From positions 4,735 to 68,734 of the forward strand of contig JAXHLT010000003.1 in assembly GCA_034521955.1 (NCBI GenBank): DNA of 64,000 nt, written 5' to 3'. Source of the DNA: Halanaerobiales bacterium. Lineage in GTDB: Bacteria; Bacillota; Halanaerobiia; Halanaerobiales; M55B127. The translations under genes and the position numbers were made by a program. Below the pieces are notes generated by a model that searched no databases, had not been told where the DNA came from, and was given only the letters and a program-made list of their open reading frames with translations. Shown in pieces: positions 1 through 21,870 of this stretch (position 1 is the first letter of the stretch; each line of letters starts with the position of its first letter).

Positions 1-43
1 TAGTAAGATACATGTGATATATATCACTTAAAAAATAATAAAT

Positions 44-144
44 ACTCCGAGTCTTATAATCCTAAAGAAAATATTGCAATCAATGGAACTAAGACCGACA
101 GGGTATCTTTGGAAACATAGATGCCTCCCAAGGTGGAAAGGAGT
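44..144 (+). promoter_or_regulatory. Moco/Tuco (molybdenum/tungsten cofactor) riboswitch candidate, aptamer
   Basis: P1 ACUCC(44-48)/GGAGU(140-144). GAG junction. Stem GUCUUA(51-56)/UAAGAC(90-95). GACCG. Hairpin GGUAUCU(102-108)/AGAUGCC(119-125) followed by UCCC and GGAAAGGAG. The same layout with compensatory changes recurs at 19651-19752. It lies 5' of an AOR-family operon. Confidence 0.7.
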
Positions 145-190
145 AGCGGTAAGTTAGTCAAAAGAATCTTATTTGCGCTTTCCTTTCGAA

Positions 191-230
191 AAAAAGCACT
201 TTTTAAATAAATAATAAAGAGTGCTTTTTT
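191..230 (+). terminator. Intrinsic terminator/attenuator (expression platform of the leader)
   Basis: Stem AAGCACU(194-200)/AGUGCUU(220-226) followed by a U-run to 230. It sits between the aptamer and the RBS at 244-250. CUUUCC at 178-184 could compete with the GGAAAG of the aptamer. Confidence 0.65.
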
Positions 231-259
231 ATATGCAAACAATGAGGAGGTATGTATTT

Positions 260-934
260 ATGTCAAAAGAGAACCAAGAATCCAAGAACTTTATGCAGCG
301 TCCGACAACTCGTCGTGAATTTATCAAAAAGAGTGTAGAGGGTGCTGCCGGTGCAGCAGTATCATTTTCAATTTTAAATTTATTTACTGATTCTGCTCAA
401 GCACAGGGAATTAAAACAGCAGATGGTATTGTAATAGTTGACCCTGTTAAATGTACCGGTTGTAGAAGATGTGAGACAAATTGTACAGCATTTAACGATG
501 GAAAAGCTCACCCTTATATTTCACGAGTTAAGGTTGGACCAAACTACAACTTTGGTAAAAACGGACCATCATATAATTACAGATATGGTGATGGTAACTT
601 AGGAGACTTTACCATTGTTGGAGAAACTTGTAGGCAGTGTGAATCTGCAAGGTGTATCAGTGCTTGTCCTATGGATGCAATTTCAGTTGATGAAAAGACA
701 GGTGCAAGGGTAATTGATAAGAAAAAATGTGTAGGTTGTGGAAGATGTGCAGTTGCATGTCCATATGATATTCCTACTATTGACCCTGAAACTAAAAAAT
801 CAACAAAATGTACACTTTGTGAAGGAGAACCAACATGTGCTGCAGGTTGTCCGACTGGAGCTATTGAATTTGTTCCTTGGGAAGATGTAGAAATGGCATT
901 AATTGAAAGAGAAAACTTAATAGAAAATAACTAA
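260..934 (+). CDS. Tat-signal 4x[4Fe-4S] ferredoxin-like electron-transfer subunit (DmsB/NrfC/YdhX-like)
   Basis: RBS AGGAGG then ATG 260 (the track ORF starts further upstream at 221). N-terminus TTRREFIKK plus a hydrophobic stretch plus AQA gives a twin-arginine signal. Four Cys clusters: CTGCRRCETNC, CRQCESARCISACP, CVGCGRCAVACP, CTLCEGEPTCAAGCP. Confidence 0.85.
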   Translation: MSKENQESKNFMQRPTTRREFIKKSVEGAAGAAVSFSILNLFTDSAQAQGIKTADGIVIVDPVKCTGCRRCETNCTAFNDGKAHPYISRVKVGPNYNFGKNGPSYNYRYGDGNLGDFTIVGETCRQCESARCISACPMDAISVDEKTGARVIDKKKCVGCGRCAVACPYDIPTIDPETKKSTKCTLCEGEPTCAAGCPTGAIEFVPWEDVEMALIERENLIENN

Positions 935-951
935 AATAGGAGGTAAGAAGT

Positions 952-3036
952 ATGCCAAAATATCAAGGTTGGGCTGGAAAGATTTTACGTGTAAATTTAT
1001 CTAACGGTTCCATTACTACTGAAAATACAGTTAAGTATAAAGATTATATAGGTGGAATGGGATTAGGATATAAAATAATGTGGGACGAAGTAGATGAAAA
1101 TACCAAACCATTTGATGAGGAAAACAAGATTGTGTTTGGTGCAGGACCATTAACAGGTACAGGAGCACCATGTACAGCAAGAACAAACATAACTTCATTA
1201 TTACCTGCTAATCCACAAAATTTAATTGGAGATTCACATATGGGAGGAAATTTTTCTCCAGAGATGAAGTATGCTGGTTATGATGCAATCATAATTGAAG
1301 GAAAAGCTTCAAGACCAGTATGGTTAAGAATAGAAGATGACAAAGTATCCCTTGAAAGTGCTTCCCGTTTATGGGGACAGGGTATCTTTGATACAACTGC
1401 TAATATAGCTTCTATGATGGGTAAGGAAGCCCAGGTTGCTGCAATAGGTCAGGCTGGTGAAAACCAGGTTCCACTTTCCACTATAATGACAAATGGAAAC
1501 CATTCAGCTGGTGGACATGCGGGTATTATGGGTTATAAAAATCTTAAAGCGATTGGTATAATTGGAACTCAATCTGTTAAATATGCAGCAGATAAAGAAG
1601 ATTGGATAGAATTAAATGAATCAGTAATGTCAATAATTGGTGCAAATAATCAGCATGTTGTACCAAGTACACCACAGCCATGGGCTGAATTCCATGATGC
1701 TTCAAGTCGCTGGACTGCTCAAGAAGGACTTTATTGGGGAGCAGCTGATCAAGAAATAGAAACTGGTATTTGTAAACCGGAAGATACAAATCGAATTGGT
1801 TACAGAACTATGAAAGCAATTAAAGACTTAGGTCCAATCTCTGAAGACTACACAGTTCGAATGGGTGGATGTCAATCTTGTCCAATCCGCTGTCATTCAA
1901 GTGTTAAAGTACCAGAATTAGAAAAGTATGGAGTATCTCCATATGTTTCAAATACATGTGTAGGATTTTGGAGTCATTGGTATGTAAATCAAAATGCTGA
2001 ATCAGAAAAAGATAATTTCTTAAATAAGACATTAGGTGCTCAATTAGCTGATGATTATGGTCTTTGGTTTAATTACGGTCAGTTAGGAAGAGACTTAAAA
2101 TATCTATATGATAATGGAATATTTGAAGAAGTACTTCCTGAAGATGAATATAATGATATTCCTTGGGATCTATATGAAGTTGGAGATCCAGCATTTTTAG
2201 TTGATTTCTATAGAAGATTAGCTTATCGTGAAGGTGAAATAAGTCATATCAGTGATGGCTCAGCAGCAATAGCAGAACGTTGGGATTTAGGTGATGATTA
2301 CTGGAATAGTAAAACAAATAAATTATGGTCACGTATGGGCTATCCTTTACATCATGCCAATGAATCAAATGCTCAGGTTGGTACTTTAATCAATACAATA
2401 TTTAACCGTGATCCAATGTGTCACTCACATCAGAACTTTATTGGAAGTGGTTTACCAACAAAACTGCAAAAAGAAATTGCTGCAGAAACTTGGGGTTCAG
2501 AAGATGCTATTGATGTTCCTGCTAATTATACTCCAATGAATCGTGCAAAAGCTAAATTTGCAAAATGGAGTTTAATTAGAAATGCACTTCATGACTCAAT
2601 GACAGTATGTAACTGGATGTTCCCAATGGTTACATCACCACTTAAGTCAAGAGATTATCGTGGAGATACAACCATTGAAGCTAAATACTTCTCATTAGCT
2701 ACAGGTATGGAGGTCAGTGAAGAAGAACTAGATAAAATTGGTAGAAAAATCATGACCTTACACCGTGCAATGACAGTAAAACAGATGGGAACAGTTGATA
2801 TGCGTAATGAACATGATAGAATTACAGATTGGGTATATGATATGGATCCTGATAAAAACGCATTTGAAGCTGGTACAATTAAGATGGATAGAGAAGATAT
2901 GGAAACAGCAAGAACAATGCTTTATGAAGAATTTGGCTGGGATCCTAAAACTGGTGCTCCAACAGCTGAAACGTTAGATGAACTTGGATTATCAGATGTT
3001 AAAGAAGAGCTAGCCAGTAAGAACTTGTTACCATAG
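952..3036 (+). CDS. Aldehyde:ferredoxin oxidoreductase (AOR) family Mo/W-pterin enzyme, long YdhV-like form
   Basis: 694 aa. AOR-type N-terminus (GWAGKILRVNLSNG, GAGPLTG) and [4Fe-4S] motif CQSCPIRC. It is about 90 aa longer than classical 605-aa AORs. It has no signal peptide of its own. RBS AGGAGG lies 8 nt upstream, and the gap to the Tat-signal FeS gene is 17 nt. Confidence 0.85.
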   Translation: MPKYQGWAGKILRVNLSNGSITTENTVKYKDYIGGMGLGYKIMWDEVDENTKPFDEENKIVFGAGPLTGTGAPCTARTNITSLLPANPQNLIGDSHMGGNFSPEMKYAGYDAIIIEGKASRPVWLRIEDDKVSLESASRLWGQGIFDTTANIASMMGKEAQVAAIGQAGENQVPLSTIMTNGNHSAGGHAGIMGYKNLKAIGIIGTQSVKYAADKEDWIELNESVMSIIGANNQHVVPSTPQPWAEFHDASSRWTAQEGLYWGAADQEIETGICKPEDTNRIGYRTMKAIKDLGPISEDYTVRMGGCQSCPIRCHSSVKVPELEKYGVSPYVSNTCVGFWSHWYVNQNAESEKDNFLNKTLGAQLADDYGLWFNYGQLGRDLKYLYDNGIFEEVLPEDEYNDIPWDLYEVGDPAFLVDFYRRLAYREGEISHISDGSAAIAERWDLGDDYWNSKTNKLWSRMGYPLHHANESNAQVGTLINTIFNRDPMCHSHQNFIGSGLPTKLQKEIAAETWGSEDAIDVPANYTPMNRAKAKFAKWSLIRNALHDSMTVCNWMFPMVTSPLKSRDYRGDTTIEAKYFSLATGMEVSEEELDKIGRKIMTLHRAMTVKQMGTVDMRNEHDRITDWVYDMDPDKNAFEAGTIKMDREDMETARTMLYEEFGWDPKTGAPTAETLDELGLSDVKEELASKNLLP

Positions 3037-3138
3037 TTAAAATATATCTCAAGATTTAATTTAAATTAAGTAAAATAGGGAACTGCTTATAATATTTTAT
3101 AGGTAGTTCCCGATATAAAAATTAAGGAAGTGTGAACT

Positions 3139-3672
3139 ATGGGTAATAATAATATAGAAAAAAATATTTTAGATATTATTACAAAATTGGTTAGAGATAG
3201 ATCTGCTCAAGCTCAAATTACTACTTTAGATGAAATAAAAGAAAAAGTTTCTAATTTAACAGATGAAGAATTTGAAGATAAAATTGAGATACTCAAAACT
3301 GATGATAAGTATAAAGATATAAGGGTTTTGAGTGGTAAGAAGGGCAGATATTTATTTTCAGATAATGATATGACATTAAAATATGCAAAACTTATGGCTC
3401 AAATTGAAGAAAATGATGTAAAAGGTTTAATAGCAAAAACTGTAAGAGAAGATTCAAAAATATATCCAAGACCTACAGATACTACAGTATTTAATAAAAG
3501 CCCTTTCTATTTAGAAGATGATGTACTAATAGATGTTATTGAACAGATGAAAGATGAAGAGGAATATAAAGATATACAAGAAGTTGAGGCTTCAAATGGT
3601 GCTTTATACCTTTTTTCCAATAAACATATGGAAAAGATCATGCTATTGGACTTACAGAATGGGTTGAAGTAA
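3139..3672 (+). CDS. Hypothetical acidic protein (accessory to the AOR module, function unknown)
   Basis: 177-aa ORF with RBS AAGGAAG and no motif I recognise. It occupies the position that ydhW has in E. coli ydhYVWXUT, but homology is not established. The 3' end is uncertain: after the A4 run at 3632-3635 the +1 frame reads KDHAIGLTEWVEVIRKETP up to TAG 3690-3692. Confidence 0.5.
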   Translation: MGNNNIEKNILDIITKLVRDRSAQAQITTLDEIKEKVSNLTDEEFEDKIEILKTDDKYKDIRVLSGKKGRYLFSDNDMTLKYAKLMAQIEENDVKGLIAKTVREDSKIYPRPTDTTVFNKSPFYLEDDVLIDVIEQMKDEEEYKDIQEVEASNGALYLFSNKHMEKIMLLDLQNGLK

Positions 3673-3703: not shown

Positions 3704-4409
3704 ATGAGAAAACTTAAACCAAATCATATAAAAGGAAAAACAAATGTATGTGAAGAGACACCAATTGATTTAACAGTAAATGGAAAAGATATTGTTACTT
3801 TTATGTGTACACCTCAAAATTTAAAAGAATTGGCAGTAGGATATCTTTATATACAGGGAATTATTAATGAAGTAGATGAAATAAACTATTTAGCAGCTTG
3901 TGAAGATATGGATACAATAAATGTGGGTGTTAATGGTAAATTAGATGAGTCTTACGGTAAATTAAAAAGATGTATTAGCAAGTAGTTGTGGAAAAGCACT
4001 TGATGATGATAAATTAAGAGATTTAGGTAAGGTGGATTCTAAGATAAAAATTCCTCTTAGTAAGATTAAAAAAATAGCAAAAAAAATGTTTTCAAATACA
4101 GTTTTATATAAAAAAACTGGTGGAGTACATTGTGCAGCTATATCAGACTACAGTGATTTAATTCATCTAAAAGAAGATGTAGGTAGACATAATGCTGTTG
4201 ATAAAGTAGTAGGACAGTCTATTTTAAGTGACTTAGACTTTTCAAACAGTATCATATTTACCTCAGGACGTATTTCATCAGATATGGTATTAAAAGTGGC
4301 TACTTCTAAGTTTCCAATTGTAGTATCTAGAAGTATTCCTAGCAGTCTTGCTTTAGAGATTGCTGAAAAAGCAAATATAACTGTTATTGGAAGAATCATG
4401 CGCCTGTGA
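3704..4409 (+). pseudogene. fdhD: FdhD-family sulfurtransferase, split by a 1-nt frameshift (possible sequencing error)
   Basis: Track ORFs 3704-3985 and 4032-4409 form one protein. The frame changes in the A5 run 3964-3968, after which the sequence reads KDVLASSCGKAL. C-terminal motifs GGVHCAA and GRHNAVDK are typical of FdhD. Confidence 0.75.
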
Positions 4410-4692: not shown

Positions 4693-5403
4693 TTGAGTGA
4701 TATTGAATTACCTTTAATAGAACATATAGCTGAATTAAGAAAACGGTTGCTAACTATAGTTGGTATAGTTATAGCTGGTACTATAGGTAGTTATTTATAT
4801 ATTGAAAAACTTATAGAACTACTATTAGCTCCAGTTAGAGAACTAGATTTCATTTATTTAACTCCTCCAGAGTTATTTTTATCATATTTAAAGATAGCCC
4901 TGGTAGTCGGTGTTATTACAACATCCCCTATAATTTTCTGGAATTTTTGGGTGTTTATAGTTCCGGGACTAAAGAAAAAAGAAAAGAGATACTTGGGATT
5001 ATCGATATTCATGGGTTATTTTCTGTTTTTATTAGGAGGATATTTTGCATATAGAATAATTATACCAATTACTATTGACTTTTTTGTTAAGTTACAAACT
5101 CCAGTAATACAACCACAGTTTTCATTTGGAAGCTATACTGGTTTTATTAGTTCTATTTTGTTGTCCTTTGGTATAGTTTTTGAATTACCGATTTTAATAG
5201 CGCTCTTGACTAAGTTTAATCTTATCAGAGCTGCTACTTTAAGAAAATATCGTAAATACCTAATTGTTGTAATATTTATAGTAGCATCATTATTATCTCC
5301 ACCAGATGTAATATCACAACTTTTACTTGCAGCACCACTTTTAGTTTTATTTGAAATAAGTGTGTTGATATCAAGTAGAATTGGTAAAAACAAAGATTAT
5401 TAA
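4693..5403 (+). CDS. tatC: Twin-arginine translocase subunit TatC
   Basis: 236 aa with 6 predicted TM segments. N-terminal LPLIEHIAELRKRL is a typical TatC start. TTG start with RBS AGGGGA. Confidence 0.85.
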   Translation: MSDIELPLIEHIAELRKRLLTIVGIVIAGTIGSYLYIEKLIELLLAPVRELDFIYLTPPELFLSYLKIALVVGVITTSPIIFWNFWVFIVPGLKKKEKRYLGLSIFMGYFLFLLGGYFAYRIIIPITIDFFVKLQTPVIQPQFSFGSYTGFISSILLSFGIVFELPILIALLTKFNLIRAATLRKYRKYLIVVIFIVASLLSPPDVISQLLLAAPLLVLFEISVLISSRIGKNKDY

Positions 5404-5434
5404 AGATGGTTAACAAATATATGAAGAAATATTA

Positions 5435-5472
5435 AAAAGGTCAGTATCATTGATTTGATACTGACCTTTTTT
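5435..5472. terminator. Bidirectional intrinsic terminator
   Basis: AAAAAGGUCAGUAUCA-loop-UGAUACUGACCUUUUUU. This is a perfect long stem flanked by an A-run and a U-run, between convergent tatC (+) and the 5501-6007 gene (-). Confidence 0.85.
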
Positions 5473-5500
5473 GTTAAAGCATGAAAAATGAAAATCACTT

Positions 5501-6007
5501 TTAATTTAGAAAATACAGTTTTTTGTTTAATATTTTTATAGTAAAGTTTAATACTATCCCTACAAATAATCCTTCAATACAGAATAATATTAATAATCTA
5601 AAATTATTGTAATTTACAATCGTTAAAAGGACATTTAATATATTTGTTCCAAGAAATAGATCTGTTAAATATATGGATAAATAAAAACCTAAAGCAAGTC
5701 CTAAAGATAGAATGATGATCTTAATATATTTGTTAAGATTAATCTTGGAATATAATACTAATATTAAAGATATAATAATATATAAAACTATAAAAACAAG
5801 TTGTTGTATAAAAAACAACATAATAATAATTAAAAGAGTGATCACAATAGAAATACTTTCTAAAAGATTAAACATCTTAAAGTAAATGTAAAGAGTAAGT
5901 GGTACAACAATACTATTAAAAATATTTATACTTCCTCTGAAAAGATTAAAGGAGATAATTATTATTACTAGTGAAACTGCTCCATAAGTTATACTTTTTA
6001 ATTTCAT
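5501..6007 (-). CDS. Hypothetical polytopic membrane protein
   Basis: 168 aa, about 5 hydrophobic segments, RBS AAGGGGA upstream of the ATG. No family recognised. Confidence 0.55.
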   Translation of the reverse strand: MKLKSITYGAVSLVIIIISFNLFRGSINIFNSIVVPLTLYIYFKMFNLLESISIVITLLIIIMLFFIQQLVFIVLYIIISLILVLYSKINLNKYIKIIILSLGLALGFYLSIYLTDLFLGTNILNVLLTIVNYNNFRLLILFCIEGLFVGIVLNFTIKILNKKLYFLN

Positions 6008-19584: not shown

Positions 19585-19608
19585 TTGTGAAACTATTATT
19601 TTTCACAA
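19585..19608. repeat. Perfect 8-bp inverted repeat UUGUGAAA-N8-UUUCACAA
   Basis: 19585-19592 pairs with 19601-19608, 9 nt after the rSAM stop and about 45 nt upstream of the riboswitch. No U-run follows. Confidence 0.5.
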
Positions 19609-19650
19609 CTTATAAAGGAATTTTAGGTTTTCCCTGTAATTAATATAATA

Positions 19651-19752
19651 TACCTTCGAGTCTTGGAGCCTAAAAAACTAATAATGTTTTATGGCAAATT
19701 GACCGCTGGGTTATAGTAGAAATACTATAGCCTCCCGTGTTTGGAAAGAAGA
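19651..19752 (+). promoter_or_regulatory. Moco/Tuco riboswitch candidate, aptamer (second copy)
   Basis: P1 CUUC(19654-57)/GAAG(19748-51). GAG. GUCUUG/CAA..GAC. GACCG. Hairpin GGUUAUAGUA(19709-18)-GAAA-UACUAUAGCC(19723-32), then UCCC and GGAAAG. RBS AAAGGAGG at 19761-68 follows directly, with no terminator. Confidence 0.7.
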
Positions 19753-19776
19753 TAAATCATAAAGGAGGTATAATTA

Positions 19777-21583
19777 ATGGGGAAAATTCAAGAATTTTCA
19801 GTACTAAGAGTTGATTTAGGAAAACAAACGGTAAAAAGAGAGATAATTGCAGGTGAAAGAGTAGAAAAGTATTTAGGAGGTAGAGGATTAGCATCAAAAA
19901 TTCTATATGATGAGATTGATCCCAAAGTAGATCCTTTAAGTCCTGAAAACAAACTAATTTATGCTACAGGTTTACTGACTGGTACAGCTGCCTCCACAGG
20001 TGGACGTTATATGGTTGTTACTAAGGGTCCATTAACCGGTACAATAGCAAGTAGTAATTCCGGTGGATTTTTTGGTGCAGAGCTTCGTTTTAGCGGTAAT
20101 GATATGATTATCTTTGAAGGTAAGTCTGATAAACCGGTTTATCTTTCAATCAAGGGAGATAAAGCAGAGTTAAAAGATGCCTCACATATTTGGGGTAAAA
20201 AAGTAAATGAAACAACAGATATGTTAATAGAGGAATTTGGTGATGATGGTGCTAGGGTAAGTTGTATAGGTCCTGCGGGAGAAAACCAGGTAATGTTTGC
20301 ATCTATTATGAATGAAAAACATAGAGCTGCCGGTCGTACAGGTGTTGGTGCAGTTATGGGTTCGAAAAATCTTAAAGCTGTTATAGTTAAATCTGATGAG
20401 AATAAAGTTAATTATGATAAAGAAAGTGCAATGGAAGTTGTTAGAAAACAAACTAAAATGTTAAAAGAAGATGGTGTTACAGGTGAAGGACTCCCTGCTT
20501 TAGGAACAAAAGTATTAGATAACATTATTAATTCTAATGGTCTTTATCCATCAAATAACTTCCAGTTTGGAACATTTGATAAGACTGAAGAAGTATCTGG
20601 AGAGGCTTTAGTTGAAAAAGGTTACTTACAGTCTAATAAAGGTTGTTATGGATGTCCAATAAGATGTGGACGTGACGTAAAACTACCTAATGGTAGATCT
20701 GGTGAAGGACCTGAATATGAAACAGGTTGGGCCTTTGGAGCAGACTGTGGAGTTGATGATTTAAATGCAATAACTGAGGCTAACTTTTTATGTAATGAAT
20801 TAGGACTCGATACAATAAGTGCCGGTACTACAATAGCCTGTGCAATGGAATTGATATGAAAACGGTTATATAGATAAAGAAGAATTAGAAAATGGTCCTG
20901 AACTTAATTTTGGTTCTTCTGAATCAATTATTTATTATACAAAGCAAATGGCTTATAGAGAAGGTTTTGGAGACAAATTAGCTATGGGATCATATCGATT
21001 AGCTGATTCTAAAGGTCATCCTGAACTTTCAATGTCAGTTAAAAAGCAGGAACTTCCTGCATATGACCCAAGAGGAGTTCAAGGTCAAGGTTTACAGTAT
21101 GCAACTTCAAATCGAGGAGGTTGTCATGTAAGAGGTTATATGATATCACCTGAGGTAATTGGTGCTCCTGAGAAGTTAGATCCACAAGAATTAAAAGGTA
21201 AACCAGAATGGGTTAAAATATTCCAGGACTTAACAGCTGTAATAGATTCAGTGGGAATGTGTTTATTTACTTCATTTGCATTAGGTTTAGATGACTATAA
21301 AGAGATAGTAAATGCTGGAACAGACTTTAATTATACTTCAGATGAACTTTTACAAGCTGGAGAAAGAATATATAACTTAGAAAGAAAGTTTAATTTAGAA
21401 GCCGGAATAAGTCCTAAAGAAGATAAACTTCCTAATCGTTTTACAGATGTTCCACTTCCTGATGGCCCACAAAAAGGTGTTGTTTCTAAATATAAAGAAA
21501 TATTACCTAAATATTATGAAGAAAGAGGATGGACTCCTGAAGGAGAAATCAGTACTGATAAAATTAATGAATTAGGATTATAA
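19777..21583 (+). pseudogene. aor: Tungsten-type aldehyde:ferredoxin oxidoreductase (classical ~602 aa), interrupted by one extra base
   Basis: Track ORFs 19777-20859 and 20948-21583 form one protein. Skipping A 20854 gives ...CAMEL-YENGYIDKEELENGPELNFGSSESIIYYTKQMAYREG.... Motifs present: GGRGL, GPLTG, CYGCPIRCGR, EYETGWAFGADCG, GLDTIS. Confidence 0.85.
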
Positions 21584-21588
21584 TAAAT

Positions 21589-21870
21589 ATGAAAATAAAA
21601 GTAAAATTATATTCTTTATTTAGATTAAATCTAAAAACTTCTGAAGTAAACTATGAGTTCGAAAAAAATATAAAGGTTAAAGATTTAATAGATAGACTTG
21701 ATGACGATTTTTCAGGTTACTTTTCTGAAAAATTATTGGAATCTGGGGAAATCAAAACTGGTTCCATTATTTTAATTAATGGCAAAAATATTTTTCATAT
21801 TGATAAATTAAACTCTAAAATTAAACATGGAGATATTGTTACAATGTTTCCACCATCTGCAGGAGGATAG
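21589..21870 (+). CDS. MoaD/ThiS-family ubiquitin-like sulfur-carrier protein
   Basis: 93 aa ending ...HGDIVTMFPPSAGG (C-terminal Gly-Gly). It starts 5 nt after the aor stop. Confidence 0.75.
   Translation: MKIKVKLYSLFRLNLKTSEVNYEFEKNIKVKDLIDRLDDDFSGYFSEKLLESGEIKTGSIILINGKNIFHIDKLNSKIKHGDIVTMFPPSAGG

What the first reader, a model, noticed from the sequence alone, without database searches (positions are those of the whole stretch)
44..230. Moco/Tuco-class riboswitch with a terminator expression platform in front of the Tat-AOR operon
Seen: the leader contains ACUCCGAG ... GACCG ... GCCUCCC ... GGAAAGGAGU, with P1 44-48/140-144, a stem 51-56/90-95 and a hairpin 102-108/119-125. A strong terminator follows at 191-230, before the RBS. 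The second leader at 19651-19752 has the same order of elements with compensatory pairs. In P1, C47:G141 becomes U56:A49. In the P2 stem, A56:U90 becomes G65:C95. In the hairpin, GGUAUCU/AGAUGCC becomes GGUUAUAGUA/UACUAUAGCC. That is covariation support visible without any alignment tool. Established: the Moco RNA motif (Regulski et al. 2008) precedes Mo/W-cofactor biosynthesis and Mo/W-enzyme genes, and variants lacking the P3 stem were proposed to sense the tungsten cofactor. Inference: transcription of the whole Tat-AOR operon is shut off by cofactor. That is odd for an enzyme that needs the cofactor, unless the switch discriminates Moco from Tuco.
Basis: partly seen in the sequence, partly recalled or inferred. 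Interest (0 to 1): 0.6.

Follow-up and report, generated by a model that had tools for sequence, protein, structure and literature searches.

The report
Tungsten-cofactor riboswitches before aldehyde oxidoreductase operons

Summary
Both leaders match Rfam RF01055 far above threshold: 67.2 and 75.0 bits against a gathering score of 36. Both lack stem P3, so they belong to the 'Tuco' subclass described in 2008. The RNA family is therefore already known.

The proposed cofactor-OFF terminator is not supported as stated.
- **Leader 2 (19642-19767):** it has no terminator. Its 4-bp P1 shares its 5' strand with a stronger helix that hides the ribosome-binding site. Forcing P1 frees that site (unpaired 0.01 -> 0.89).
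- **Survey of the class:** I analysed 143 RF01055 leaders from this bacterial class. The pattern appears in 36 of 41 leaders whose first gene is an aldehyde oxidoreductase (AOR), in 10 of 12 genera. It appears in only 4 of 57 tungstate-transporter or MobB leaders.
- **Leader 1 (33-159):** the terminator at 189-230 is real and conserved. Its coupling to the aptamer is inconsistent among five orthologues. In the ligand-free fold the ribosome-binding site pairs with the aptamer core.

My reading is ligand-ON for leader 2 (about 0.65) and probably ON for leader 1 (about 0.45). All of this is computational.

Earlier notes of this scan proposed the same ON logic on other genomes. I found no description of it in my paper searches.

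The parts
14..27 (.). Palindrome GTGA-N6-TCAC just upstream of leader 1. It is a candidate operator or promoter-overlapping site.
   Evidence: Read directly from the sequence. It is kept in 5 of 5 orthologous leaders. The regulator was not identified.
33..159 (+). Leader-1 aptamer of the Moco/Tuco class, without P3. P1 is 43-48/140-145, the P2 base is 51-56/90-95, and P4 is 101-111/116-126 with a GAAA loop.
   Evidence: RF01055 at 67.2 bits against a gathering score of 36, E 5.2e-14, model positions 1-135.
136..187 (+). Anti-aptamer hairpin H. GAAAGGAGUAGCG (136-148), which includes the P1 3' strand, pairs with CGCUUUCCUUUC (176-187).
   Evidence: Present in the minimum-energy fold. Both arms are conserved in 5 of 5 orthologues. 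Duplex energy is -13.9 to -18.4 kcal/mol.
189..230 (+). Intrinsic-terminator-like hairpin. A-tract 189-195, stem 196-204/216-224, U-tract 225-230.
   Evidence: Folds as described. Conserved in 5 of 5 orthologues with a compensatory G:C <-> A:U change. Local free energy is -6.7 to -12.8 kcal/mol.
121..128 (+). P4 3' strand plus the conserved CCUCC (AUGCCUCC). It is complementary to the ribosome-binding region 247-254.
   Evidence: Duplex energy is -14.3 to -15.6 kcal/mol in 5 of 5 orthologues. It is the consensus pairing in the unconstrained alignment fold.
244..262 (+). Shine-Dalgarno sequence GAGGAGG (244-250) and the start codon (260-262) of the ferredoxin gene.
   Evidence: Sequence. Unpaired probability is 0.00-0.04 without constraint and 0.18-0.54 with P1 forced, in 5 of 5 orthologues.
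260..3672 (+). The regulated operon: a Tat-signal 4Fe-4S ferredoxin (260-934), an AOR (952-3036) and a YdhW-like protein (3139-3672).
   Evidence: Pfam Fer4_11 and AFOR_N/AFOR_C. NCBIfam NF007382 at 221.6 bits (cut-off 213), NF007354 at 1152.7 bits (cut-off 868), and NF007411 at 140 bits, below its cut-off of 203. TRREFIKK motif.
19642..19767 (+). Leader-2 aptamer of the Moco/Tuco class, without P3. P1 is 19652-19657/19748-19753, of which only four pairs are Watson-Crick.
   Evidence: RF01055 at 75.0 bits, E 2.7e-16. P1 pair counts on 40 related leaders.
19649..19657 (+). Switching strand UAUACCUUC. It pairs either with the P1 3' strand GAAGAU or with the ribosome-binding site.
   Evidence: Minimum-energy fold. 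Duplex with the SD region is -10.5 kcal/mol against -2.8 for P1.
19764..19779 (+). Shine-Dalgarno sequence GGAGG with its flank (GGAGGUAUA, 19764-19772) and the start codon at 19777-19779.
   Evidence: Unpaired probability is 0.01 without constraint and 0.89 with P1 forced.
19777..21870 (+). AOR gene interrupted by a one-base frameshift (19777-20859 plus 20948-21583), followed by a MoaD-family gene (21589-21870).
   Evidence: Pfam and NCBIfam matches. The gene is intact, at 601-614 aa, in 8 of 8 relatives examined.

Best explanation
Both leaders carry a P3-less Moco/Tuco-class aptamer. By the association argument of Regulski et al. 2008, this subclass senses the tungsten-pterin cofactor.

**Leader 2 most likely works as a translational ON switch.**
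- The 5' strand of P1 (19649-19657) can pair with a weak proximal 3' strand, giving a 4-bp P1.
- The same 5' strand can instead pair more strongly with the Shine-Dalgarno region (19764-19772).
- Without ligand the second helix wins and translation is blocked.
- Ligand binding locks P1, uses up the anti-SD strand and frees the ribosome-binding site.

**Leader 1 probably follows the same logic by a longer route.**
- Without ligand, hairpin H (136-148 with 176-187) pulls the P1 3' strand and GGAAAG out of the aptamer.
- The freed P4 3' strand plus CCUCC (121-128) then masks the Shine-Dalgarno region (247-254).
- With ligand the aptamer keeps these strands and the site is partly open.
- The conserved terminator 189-230 lies between them. 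I cannot show that it is coupled to the aptamer. It may act as a state-independent attenuator.

**Shown:** family membership, absence of P3, conservation of H and the terminator, P1 covariation, and the gene association.

**Inferred:** the ligand, the ON direction, and the role of the terminator.
For: **Membership**
- RF01055 at 67.2 and 75.0 bits against a gathering score of 36.

**Leader 2 and its nine orthologues in the genus**
- SD unpaired is 0.00-0.08 without constraint and 0.46-0.89 with P1 forced, in 10 of 10 leaders. The energy cost of forcing P1 is 5.0-8.7 kcal/mol.

**Survey of the class**
- I fetched 149 hits from 77 of 102 genomes and analysed 143 leaders.
- The SD opens by at least 0.3 in 36 of 41 AOR-first leaders (10 of 12 genera). 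None closes.
- It opens in 2 of 27 TupA-like, 1 of 15 ModA/WtpA-like and 1 of 15 MobB-like leaders.

**P1 in the 40 short-gap AOR leaders**
- Pairs 1-4 are canonical in 40 of 40.
- Pair 2 covaries as U:A in 22 and C:G in 18, and is never unpaired.
- Pair 5 is unpaired in 39 of 40. 0 of 500 shuffles reach the covariation score.
- P1 has 5-6 contiguous pairs in 25 of 27 TupA-like, 15 of 15 ModA-like and 15 of 15 MobB-like leaders.
- The helix between the 5' strand and the SD is stronger than P1 in 40 of 40.

**Leader-1 type**
- SD unpaired goes from 0.00-0.04 to 0.18-0.54 in 5 of 5 leaders.
- The core:SD duplex is -14.3 to -15.6 kcal/mol, against -6.3 to -8.0 for the rival masking strand.

**Orthologous ferredoxin-AOR operons elsewhere carry clearer ON designs**
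- L015/L142 has a terminator whose 5' arm is the aptamer core. Predicted formation is 0.92 without constraint and 0.25 with P1 forced.
- L216, L219 and L221 show the SD going from 0.00-0.01 to 0.54-0.65.

**Nine transporter-type leaders in the same genus show no such opening**.
Against: - Everything rests on nearest-neighbour folding, with 'P1 forced' standing in for ligand binding. No ligand has ever been tested on a P3-less representative.
- CCUCC and the P1 5' strand resemble anti-SD sequences by nature, so some complementarity to any strong SD is unavoidable.
- Complementarity beyond the 5-bp core is 3-7 bp only in genera g1, g13, g14 and g15. It shows no convincing covariation.
- The survey covers one bacterial class. 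24 of the 41 AOR leaders come from two genera.
- For leader 1 the conserved terminator with its U-tract has no role in the ON model.
- In the window's own leader, the fold of the transcript cut before the terminator's 3' arm shows 130-135 pairing with 197-202. That is an OFF-type antiterminator. Sequestration is 0.58 against 0.36 with P1 forced. In L052 it is 0.66 against 0.09.
- With P1 forced, the leader-1 SD is only 0.18-0.54 open.
- The E. limosum study (PMC11725836, passages read) describes its WOR1 leader with the same sequestor/antisequestor scheme as tupABC. It saw no transcript change on tungsten limitation.
- The AOR gene behind leader 2 is frameshifted in this assembly.
Confidence: 0.55

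Rival explanations
1. One reading: a classical cofactor-OFF terminator switch. Without ligand, an extended hairpin sequesters the terminator's 5' arm, so transcription reads through. The hairpin is H plus pairing of 130-135 with 197-202. With ligand the aptamer holds these strands and the terminator forms.
For: - For the window's leader, the minimum-energy fold of the transcript cut before the terminator's 3' arm contains exactly this extended hairpin. The 5'-arm base is paired upstream at 0.58 without constraint and 0.36 with P1 forced. L052 gives 0.66 against 0.09.
- TupA-like leaders of a sister genus have the same order of elements: aptamer, hairpin, then a separate terminator. 22 of 25 of them show this behaviour.
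- The tested E. coli moaA element is an OFF switch (PMC2408646, sections and passages read).
Against: - The effect is absent in 3 of 5 orthologues: L073 0.31 vs 0.20, L059 0.65 vs 0.66, L061 0.17 vs 0.12.
- The 130-135/197-202 pairing is broken in the closest relative L073, which has AAUGCG opposite UACUUU.
- The strong decoy strand 176-187 (-14 to -18 kcal/mol) outcompetes direct pairing of the P1 3' strand with the terminator arm (-5.6 to -10.2).
- The extension is only 6 bp across a 9-nt bulge.
- The SD behaves in the opposite, ON sense.
- Orthologous operons elsewhere have ON-type platforms.
Confidence: 0.3
2. Leader 2 is an OFF switch like E. coli moaA. On this view the functional closing helix of the bound aptamer is the long helix between 19649-19657 and the Shine-Dalgarno region, so ligand binding hides the ribosome-binding site.
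For: - That helix is the most stable one in the unconstrained fold.
- In E. coli the ribosome-binding site lies within P1 (PMC2408646).
- Some leaders of this class do have the SD in or next to the P1 3' strand and close on P1 forcing: L203, L205, L209 and L194.
Against: - The proximal strand directly follows the invariant GGAAAG, as in the family consensus. It covaries with the 5' strand (U:A 22, C:G 18, none unpaired). That pattern would be pointless if the strand never paired.
- The distal helix would insert 10-14 unconserved bases between the conserved junction and P1.
- The covariance model aligns the proximal strand at 75 bits.
Confidence: 0.15
3. The leader-1 terminator is independent of the riboswitch. 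It would be a constitutive or protein- or condition-controlled attenuator, and the aptamer would act only on translation or mRNA stability.
For: - Its arms overlap neither the aptamer nor hairpin H.
- Equilibrium formation is 0.94-0.99 in both states.
- Contigs from an RNA library of a 90-98% identical relative bridge it: 66-286 in X1 and 81-278 in X4.
Against: - Equilibrium terminator probabilities do not discriminate, because they are also high in both states for presumed OFF leaders.
- DNA carry-over in the RNA libraries cannot be excluded.
- A conserved terminator placed directly behind a riboswitch is normally part of its platform.
Confidence: 0.25

Closest known systems
Moco RNA motif, the molybdenum/tungsten-cofactor riboswitch (Rfam RF01055). 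The tested example is E. coli moaA (Regulski et al. 2008, PMC2408646).
   Same: The aptamer architecture and the conserved junctions (CCGAG, CCUCCC, GGAAAG) are the same. The GAAA-capped P4 is the same. The location in 5' leaders of Mo/W-related genes is the same.
   Different: E. coli moaA has P3, and its ribosome-binding site lies inside P1, which makes it ligand-OFF. Here P3 is absent. In leader 2 the ribosome-binding site lies 10-14 nt beyond a weakened 4-bp P1 and pairs with the P1 5' strand, which is an ON architecture.
P3-less 'Tuco/Wco' subclass of the same motif. 58 of the 176 representatives in Regulski et al. 2008 lack P3. The Tuco riboswitches of Eubacterium limosum, including one before the WOR1 operon, belong here (PMC11725836, passages read).
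   Same: The aptamer lacks P3. It is associated with tungsten enzymes of the AOR family and with tungstate transporters. Terminator-type and RBS-type platforms occur side by side in one genome.
   Different: The published descriptions I read discuss repression or sequestor/antisequestor schemes. None states a ligand-ON representative. The SI figures of PMC11725836 that show the models could not be seen.
Ligand-ON riboswitches of other classes. One type disrupts a terminator, as in the adenine riboswitch (Mandal & Breaker 2004, seen only as a reference entry). Another type is the translational ON adenine switch of Vibrio vulnificus (recalled, from no call).
   Same: An aptamer strand doubles as the partner of the terminator arm or of the ribosome-binding site, so ligand binding releases expression. 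L015/L142 shows the terminator version and leader 2 the translational version.
   Different: The aptamer class and the ligand differ. In leader 2 the switching strand is the 5' strand of P1.

Membership tests
RF01055 Moco/Tuco riboswitch aptamer | The covariance-model score reaches Rfam's gathering score (36 bits) over the full model. | tested here: met
   67.2 bits at 33-159 and 75.0 bits at 19642-19767. Both cover model positions 1-135 and neither is truncated.
RF01055 Moco/Tuco riboswitch aptamer | The conserved junction sequences are present (CCGAG after the P1 5' strand, GCCUCCC, GGAAAG before the P1 3' strand), and P4 has a GAAA tetraloop. | tested here: met
   Both leaders show them in the alignments and in the sequence. 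In leader 2 the first motif reads UUCGAG.
RF01055 Moco/Tuco riboswitch aptamer | Helices P1, P2 and P4 are supported by compensatory changes. | tested here: met
   P1 pair 2 is U:A in 22 and C:G in 18 of 40 related leaders, and 0 of 500 shuffles reach the covariation score. P4 differs in sequence between the two leaders yet pairs in both. P2 of leader 2 has four non-canonical positions in its middle.
P3-less ('Tuco') subclass | Stem P3 is absent. | tested here: met
   The P3 positions of the model are deleted in both alignments.
P3-less ('Tuco') subclass | The element is associated with tungsten-cofactor genes or tungsten enzymes. | tested here: met
   AOR-family genes follow both leaders. The third copy in the genome precedes a TupA-like gene, which scores 236 bits, below that model's cut-off of 400. 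A relative's copy precedes WtpA at 424 bits, above its cut-off of 355.
P3-less ('Tuco') subclass | The RNA binds the tungsten cofactor directly and selectively. | not testable with these tools
   According to PMC2408646 the cofactors are too unstable for direct binding tests. Selectivity is inferred there from gene association only.
Ligand-ON expression platform (working mode, not a family) | An aptamer strand pairs, in mutually exclusive fashion, with the ribosome-binding site or with a terminator arm. | tested here: met
   Leader 2: the SD goes from 0.01 to 0.89 on P1 forcing. The same holds in 36 of 41 AOR leaders of the class.
Ligand-ON expression platform (working mode, not a family) | The same holds for leader 1, including control of its terminator. 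| tested here: inconclusive
   The SD goes from 0.00-0.04 to 0.18-0.54 in 5 of 5 orthologues. The terminator forms in both states at equilibrium. An OFF-type antiterminator is predicted in 2 of 5 orthologues.

The most novel reading that the evidence does not exclude
Tungsten-cofactor riboswitches come in two opposite wirings within one genome. They are ligand-ON in front of tungsten-dependent aldehyde oxidoreductases, so the apoenzyme is made only when cofactor exists. They are ligand-OFF in front of tungstate transporters, cofactor-synthesis genes and cofactor-free aldehyde dehydrogenases. Together these would form a reciprocal RNA-based regulon that swaps isofunctional enzymes according to tungsten supply.
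Probability: 0.55. Interest if true: 0.6.

Novelty: new variant of a known kind. Interest (0 to 1): 0.42.

Why it matters
The aptamer itself is textbook. What matters is the direction of control.

Since 2008 it has been awkward that Moco/Tuco riboswitches sit in front of enzymes that need the cofactor, because the only tested example is a repressor. If the AOR-associated copies are activators, that paradox disappears: the cell would make a costly iron-sulfur tungstoenzyme only when it can be loaded.

The class would also gain its first ON representatives, with a simple sequence signature: a 4-bp P1, a Shine-Dalgarno site 10-14 nt downstream, and a P1 5' strand that serves as the anti-SD. That signature can be used to annotate regulons.

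It would also give a natural tungsten-responsive ON switch for anaerobe engineering.

The claim is directly testable with reporter fusions.

Tried and rejected
- **Equilibrium terminator probabilities.** These were meant to read the logic. I rejected them as uninformative, because terminators are predicted to form in both states even in presumed OFF transporter leaders.
- **First automated P1 finder.** It mis-assigned P1 in several AOR leaders by picking the P2 strand. Its numbers for those rows were discarded and recomputed.
- **An antiterminator between strand 176-187 and the terminator's 5' arm.** Duplex energy is no better than -2.7 kcal/mol. Rejected.
- **Pairing of 175-181 with the terminator's 3' arm as a ligand-dependent antiterminator.** It is conserved at -7.0 to -9.4 kcal/mol, but it is weaker than the terminator (-8.2 to -12.7). 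It also cannot form before the 3' arm is made. Not adopted.
- **Covariation in the flanks of the anti-SD helix.** It is not convincing, because UAUA periodicity gives equal pairing when the register is slid by 2.
- **Selenocysteine as the cause of the split AOR gene.** Rejected. The cause is a one-base frameshift.
- **RNA evidence.** Only contigs from salt-lake metatranscriptomes of a 90-98% identical relative were available. They show the leader and the start of the gene on single contigs. They say nothing about starts, ends or regulation, and stretches without cover mean nothing.
- **Paper searches for an ON-type Moco/Tuco riboswitch.** None was found. The passages read in PMC2408646, PMC1950547, PMC11725836, PMC9481103 and bioRxiv 10.1101/2024.10.15.618519 do not describe one. 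The SI figures of PMC11725836 were not available.
Full report
**1. Observation**

A scan of the whole window against Rfam gives RF01055 (Moco RNA motif) at two places.
- 33-159: 67.2 bits, E 5.2e-14.
- 19642-19767: 75.0 bits, E 2.7e-16.

The gathering score is 36. Both hits span model positions 1-135. In both, the positions of stem P3 are deleted.

The helices are as follows.
- P1: 43-48/140-145.
- P2 base: 51-56/90-95.
- P4: 101-111/116-126, with a GAAA loop.

The hairpin at 189-230 folds as claimed. Its stem is 196-204/216-224, with an A-tract before it and six U after it. The fold of 33-262 is far more stable than shuffled sequence (z = -5.2, 0 of 200 shuffles). The consensus terminator scan did not list this hairpin.

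- P1 C47:G141 against U19656:A19749 holds.
- The differently sequenced P4 holds.
- The P2 claim is a register error. G19665 lies opposite A19698, in a run of non-canonical positions.

**2. Context**

Leader 1 precedes three genes.
- A ferredoxin-like protein with a twin-arginine motif, TRREFIKK.
- A 694-aa AOR.
- A protein with a weaker YdhW-like match.

The NCBIfam scores are NF007382 at 221.6 bits (cut-off 213), NF007354 at 1152.7 bits (cut-off 868), and NF007411 at 140 bits, below its cut-off of 203. FdhD-like and TatC genes follow.

Leader 2 precedes a second AOR and a MoaD-family gene. In this assembly that AOR carries a one-base frameshift. It is intact, at 601-614 aa, in 8 of 8 relatives examined.

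The genome holds a third RF01055 copy, in front of a TupA-like tungstate-binding protein gene.

Record titles of close relatives place the organism in the Halanaerobiales.

**3. Relatives within the genus**

All 13 genomes of the genus have RF01055 hits, 30 in all. By downstream gene (tblastn; ORFs read; clustering and Pfam) they fall into these groups.
- Ferredoxin plus AOR1, the leader-1 type: 5 leaders.
- AOR2, the leader-2 type: 10 leaders.
- TupA-like: 5 leaders.
- WtpA/ModA-like: 2 leaders.
- An operon with an FMN-binding gene and a molybdopterin-oxidoreductase-domain gene: 7 leaders.
- One leader on a contig too short to classify.

Alignment of the leader-1 type shows three conserved elements behind the aptamer.
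- The strand GCGCU(U/A)UCCUUU(C/U), complementary to GGAAAGGAGUAGCG. Together they form hairpin H, 136-148 with 176-187.
- The terminator, with a compensatory G:C <-> A:U change.
- The ribosome-binding region GGAGGUAUG.

**4. Leader 2**

The minimum-energy fold pairs UAUACCUUC (19649-19657, the P1 5' strand plus three bases) with GGAGGUAUA (19764-19772), not with the proximal P1 3' strand GAAGAU.

I compared the unconstrained ensemble with one in which the P1 pairs are forced, as a proxy for the bound state. The Shine-Dalgarno site is unpaired at 0.01 against 0.89 in the window. In all 10 leaders of this type it is 0.00-0.08 against 0.46-0.89. The cost of forcing P1 is 5.0-8.7 kcal/mol.

Nine transporter-type leaders of the same genus show no such opening.

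**5. Survey of the class**

RF01055 was found in 77 of 102 genomes, in 28 of 40 genera. I fetched 119 further hits. One unlisted hit and one sub-threshold hit were left out. Together with the 30 of the genus this makes 149.
- Three hits had no downstream ORF on their contig (L068, L118, L169).
- One hit had no recognisable P1 (L131).
- Two hits had leaders over 420 nt (L178, L212).
- 143 leaders were therefore analysed.

First genes were clustered by blastp and named by Pfam on one representative per cluster. With a corrected P1 finder, the Shine-Dalgarno site opens by at least 0.3 on P1 forcing as follows.

| First gene | Leaders that open |
|---|---|
| AOR | 36 of 41 (10 of 12 genera) |
| Ferredoxin (+AOR) | 5 of 13 |
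| TupA-like | 2 of 27 |
| ModA/WtpA-like | 1 of 15 |
| MobB-like | 1 of 15 |
| Molybdopterin-oxidoreductase-domain | 0 of 7 |
| FMN-binding | 0 of 8 |

It closes by at least 0.3 in no AOR or ferredoxin leader. It closes in 3 ModA-like leaders, in 1 MobB-like leader and in the one leader of an NAD(P)-type aldehyde dehydrogenase (L203).

In the 40 short-gap AOR leaders:
- P1 pairs 1-4 are canonical in all 40.
- Pair 2 covaries, U:A in 22 and C:G in 18, and is never unpaired.
- Pair 5 is unpaired in 39 of 40.
- 0 of 500 shuffles reach the covariation score.

P1 has 5-6 contiguous pairs in 25 of 27 TupA-like, 15 of 15 ModA-like and 15 of 15 MobB-like leaders. The helix between the 5' strand and the SD is stronger than P1 in all 40 AOR leaders, at -6.5 to -14.5 against -2.8 to -7.1 kcal/mol.

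The proximal P1 is therefore real but deliberately weak, and it competes with a stronger SD-masking helix. That is the anatomy of an ON switch.

Caveats:
- Related genomes are not independent. 24 of the 41 AOR leaders come from two genera.
- Complementarity beyond the 5-bp core is clear only in four genera and shows no convincing covariation.

**6. Leader 1**

The terminator's arms overlap neither the aptamer nor hairpin H. At equilibrium it forms with probability 0.94-0.99 in both states in 5 of 5 orthologues. The same is true of presumed OFF leaders, so this measure is uninformative.

A measure closer to kinetics cuts the transcript just before the terminator's 3' arm. It then asks whether the base of the 5' arm is already paired upstream. 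By this measure 22 of 25 TupA-like leaders behave as OFF switches.

The five leader-1-type sequences give mixed results.

| Leader | Unconstrained | P1 forced |
|---|---|---|
| Window | 0.58 | 0.36 |
| L052 | 0.66 | 0.09 |
| L073 | 0.31 | 0.20 |
| L059 | 0.65 | 0.66 |
| L061 | 0.17 | 0.12 |

In the window itself the unconstrained fold extends H by pairing 130-135 (AAGGUG) with 197-202 (CACUUU) across a 9-nt bulge. It is lost in the closest relative, L073.

Duplex energies:

| Pairing | Energy (kcal/mol) |
|---|---|
| Hairpin H | -13.9 to -18.4 |
| Terminator | -8.2 to -12.7 |
| P1 3' strand with terminator 5' arm | -5.6 to -10.2 |
| 176-187 with terminator 5' arm | no better than -2.7 |

In the opposite direction, the ribosome-binding site is masked in the unconstrained state (0.00-0.04 unpaired) by the P4 3' strand plus CCUCC. 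That duplex is 121-128 with 247-254, at -14.3 to -15.6 kcal/mol. With P1 forced the site opens to 0.18-0.54, in 5 of 5 orthologues.

**7. Orthologous operons elsewhere**

- In a more distant Halanaerobiales genome, the leader of the same ferredoxin-AOR operon (L015, which is L142) has a terminator whose 5' arm is the aptamer core: AUGCCUCCC paired with GGGAGGUAU, then nine U. Predicted formation is 0.92 unconstrained and 0.25 with P1 forced. This is a direct ON design.
- A second copy (L032) is similar but less clear, at 0.45 against 0.23.
- Three leaders of another genus (L216, L219, L221) open their SD from 0.00-0.01 to 0.54-0.65.
- L005 and L179 repeat the leader-1 layout.

**8. RNA evidence**

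Only contigs from salt-lake metatranscriptomes of a 90-98% identical relative were available. Single contigs span 66-286 and 81-278, that is, across the terminator into the gene. DNA carry-over cannot be excluded, and contigs say nothing about regulation.

**9. Literature**

- Regulski et al. 2008 (PMC2408646; section 11 and passages read) describe the motif and the P3-less group (58 of 176). They also describe its association with tungsten genes and OFF behaviour in E. coli. They offer repression as a possible explanation for copies in front of cofactor-using enzymes.
- The E. limosum study (PMC11725836, passages read) places a Tuco riboswitch before the WOR1 operon and models it with sequestor/antisequestor helices. 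Its SI figures were not available.
- Searches found no description of a ligand-ON member.
- Earlier notes of this scan on other genomes proposed the same ON reading. They are not independent evidence.

**10. Verdict**

- The proposed mechanism, cofactor-OFF through the terminator, is not supported for leader 2 and is uncertain for leader 1.
- The best-supported reading is that the AOR-associated copies are ligand-ON switches. My confidence is about 0.65 for leader 2 and about 0.45 for leader 1.
- The role of the leader-1 terminator is unexplained.

Noticed in passing
window 20840-20950: The AOR gene behind leader 2 is split into 19777-20859 and 20948-21583 by one extra base near 20850. Eight of eight relatives have an intact gene of 601-614 aa. 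The cause could be an assembly error or a recent pseudogene.
   Followed up: yes
window 3704-4409: The FdhD-like sulfurtransferase gene is in two ORFs in different frames (3704-3985 and 4032-4409). This suggests a second indel in this assembly.
   Followed up: no
window 14-27 and 19585-19608: There are palindromes just upstream of both riboswitch leaders: GTGATATATATCAC at 14-27, and TTGTGAAA-N8-TTTCACAA at 19585-19608. The first is kept in 5 of 5 orthologues. They are candidate operators of a Crp/Fnr- or Rex-like regulator. That naming is recalled and was not tested.
   Followed up: partly
L002 1501-1700 (own genome, contig C2 44703-44825): The third RF01055 copy in the genome sits in front of a TupA-like gene. 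It has a classical OFF layout: CUUUCC, complementary to GGAAAG, overlaps the 5' arm of its terminator.
   Followed up: partly
L203 (relative G026, contig C73): An RF01055 aptamer lies directly on the ribosome-binding site of an NAD(P)-type aldehyde dehydrogenase gene. The site closes from 0.53 to 0.00 when P1 is forced. This is the reciprocal (OFF) control of a cofactor-free enzyme.
   Followed up: partly
L063, L065, L067, L071, L075, L066, L069 (relatives in the genus): A variant leader, with CCGAU instead of CCGAG and P1 GAUCC/GGAU, precedes an operon with an FMN-binding protein and an exported molybdopterin-oxidoreductase-domain protein. Its terminator contains CCUUUCC in its 5' arm and loop, which is an OFF-type layout for a cofactor-using enzyme.
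   Followed up: partly
L010 1-300: In one Halanaerobium isolate, the leader of the orthologous ferredoxin-AOR operon keeps the 3' half of the aptamer, hairpin H and the terminator. The CUCCGAG 5' half is missing, and the leader scores below the Rfam threshold. It may be a decaying switch.
   Followed up: no
L029, L031, L033, L034, L036 at about 5360-5530: In Tissierellia, Lachnospiraceae and Actinomycetes relatives, an RF01055 hit of 136-141 nt lies downstream of the AOR homologue instead of upstream. It is long enough to include P3. It presumably controls the next gene.
   Followed up: no
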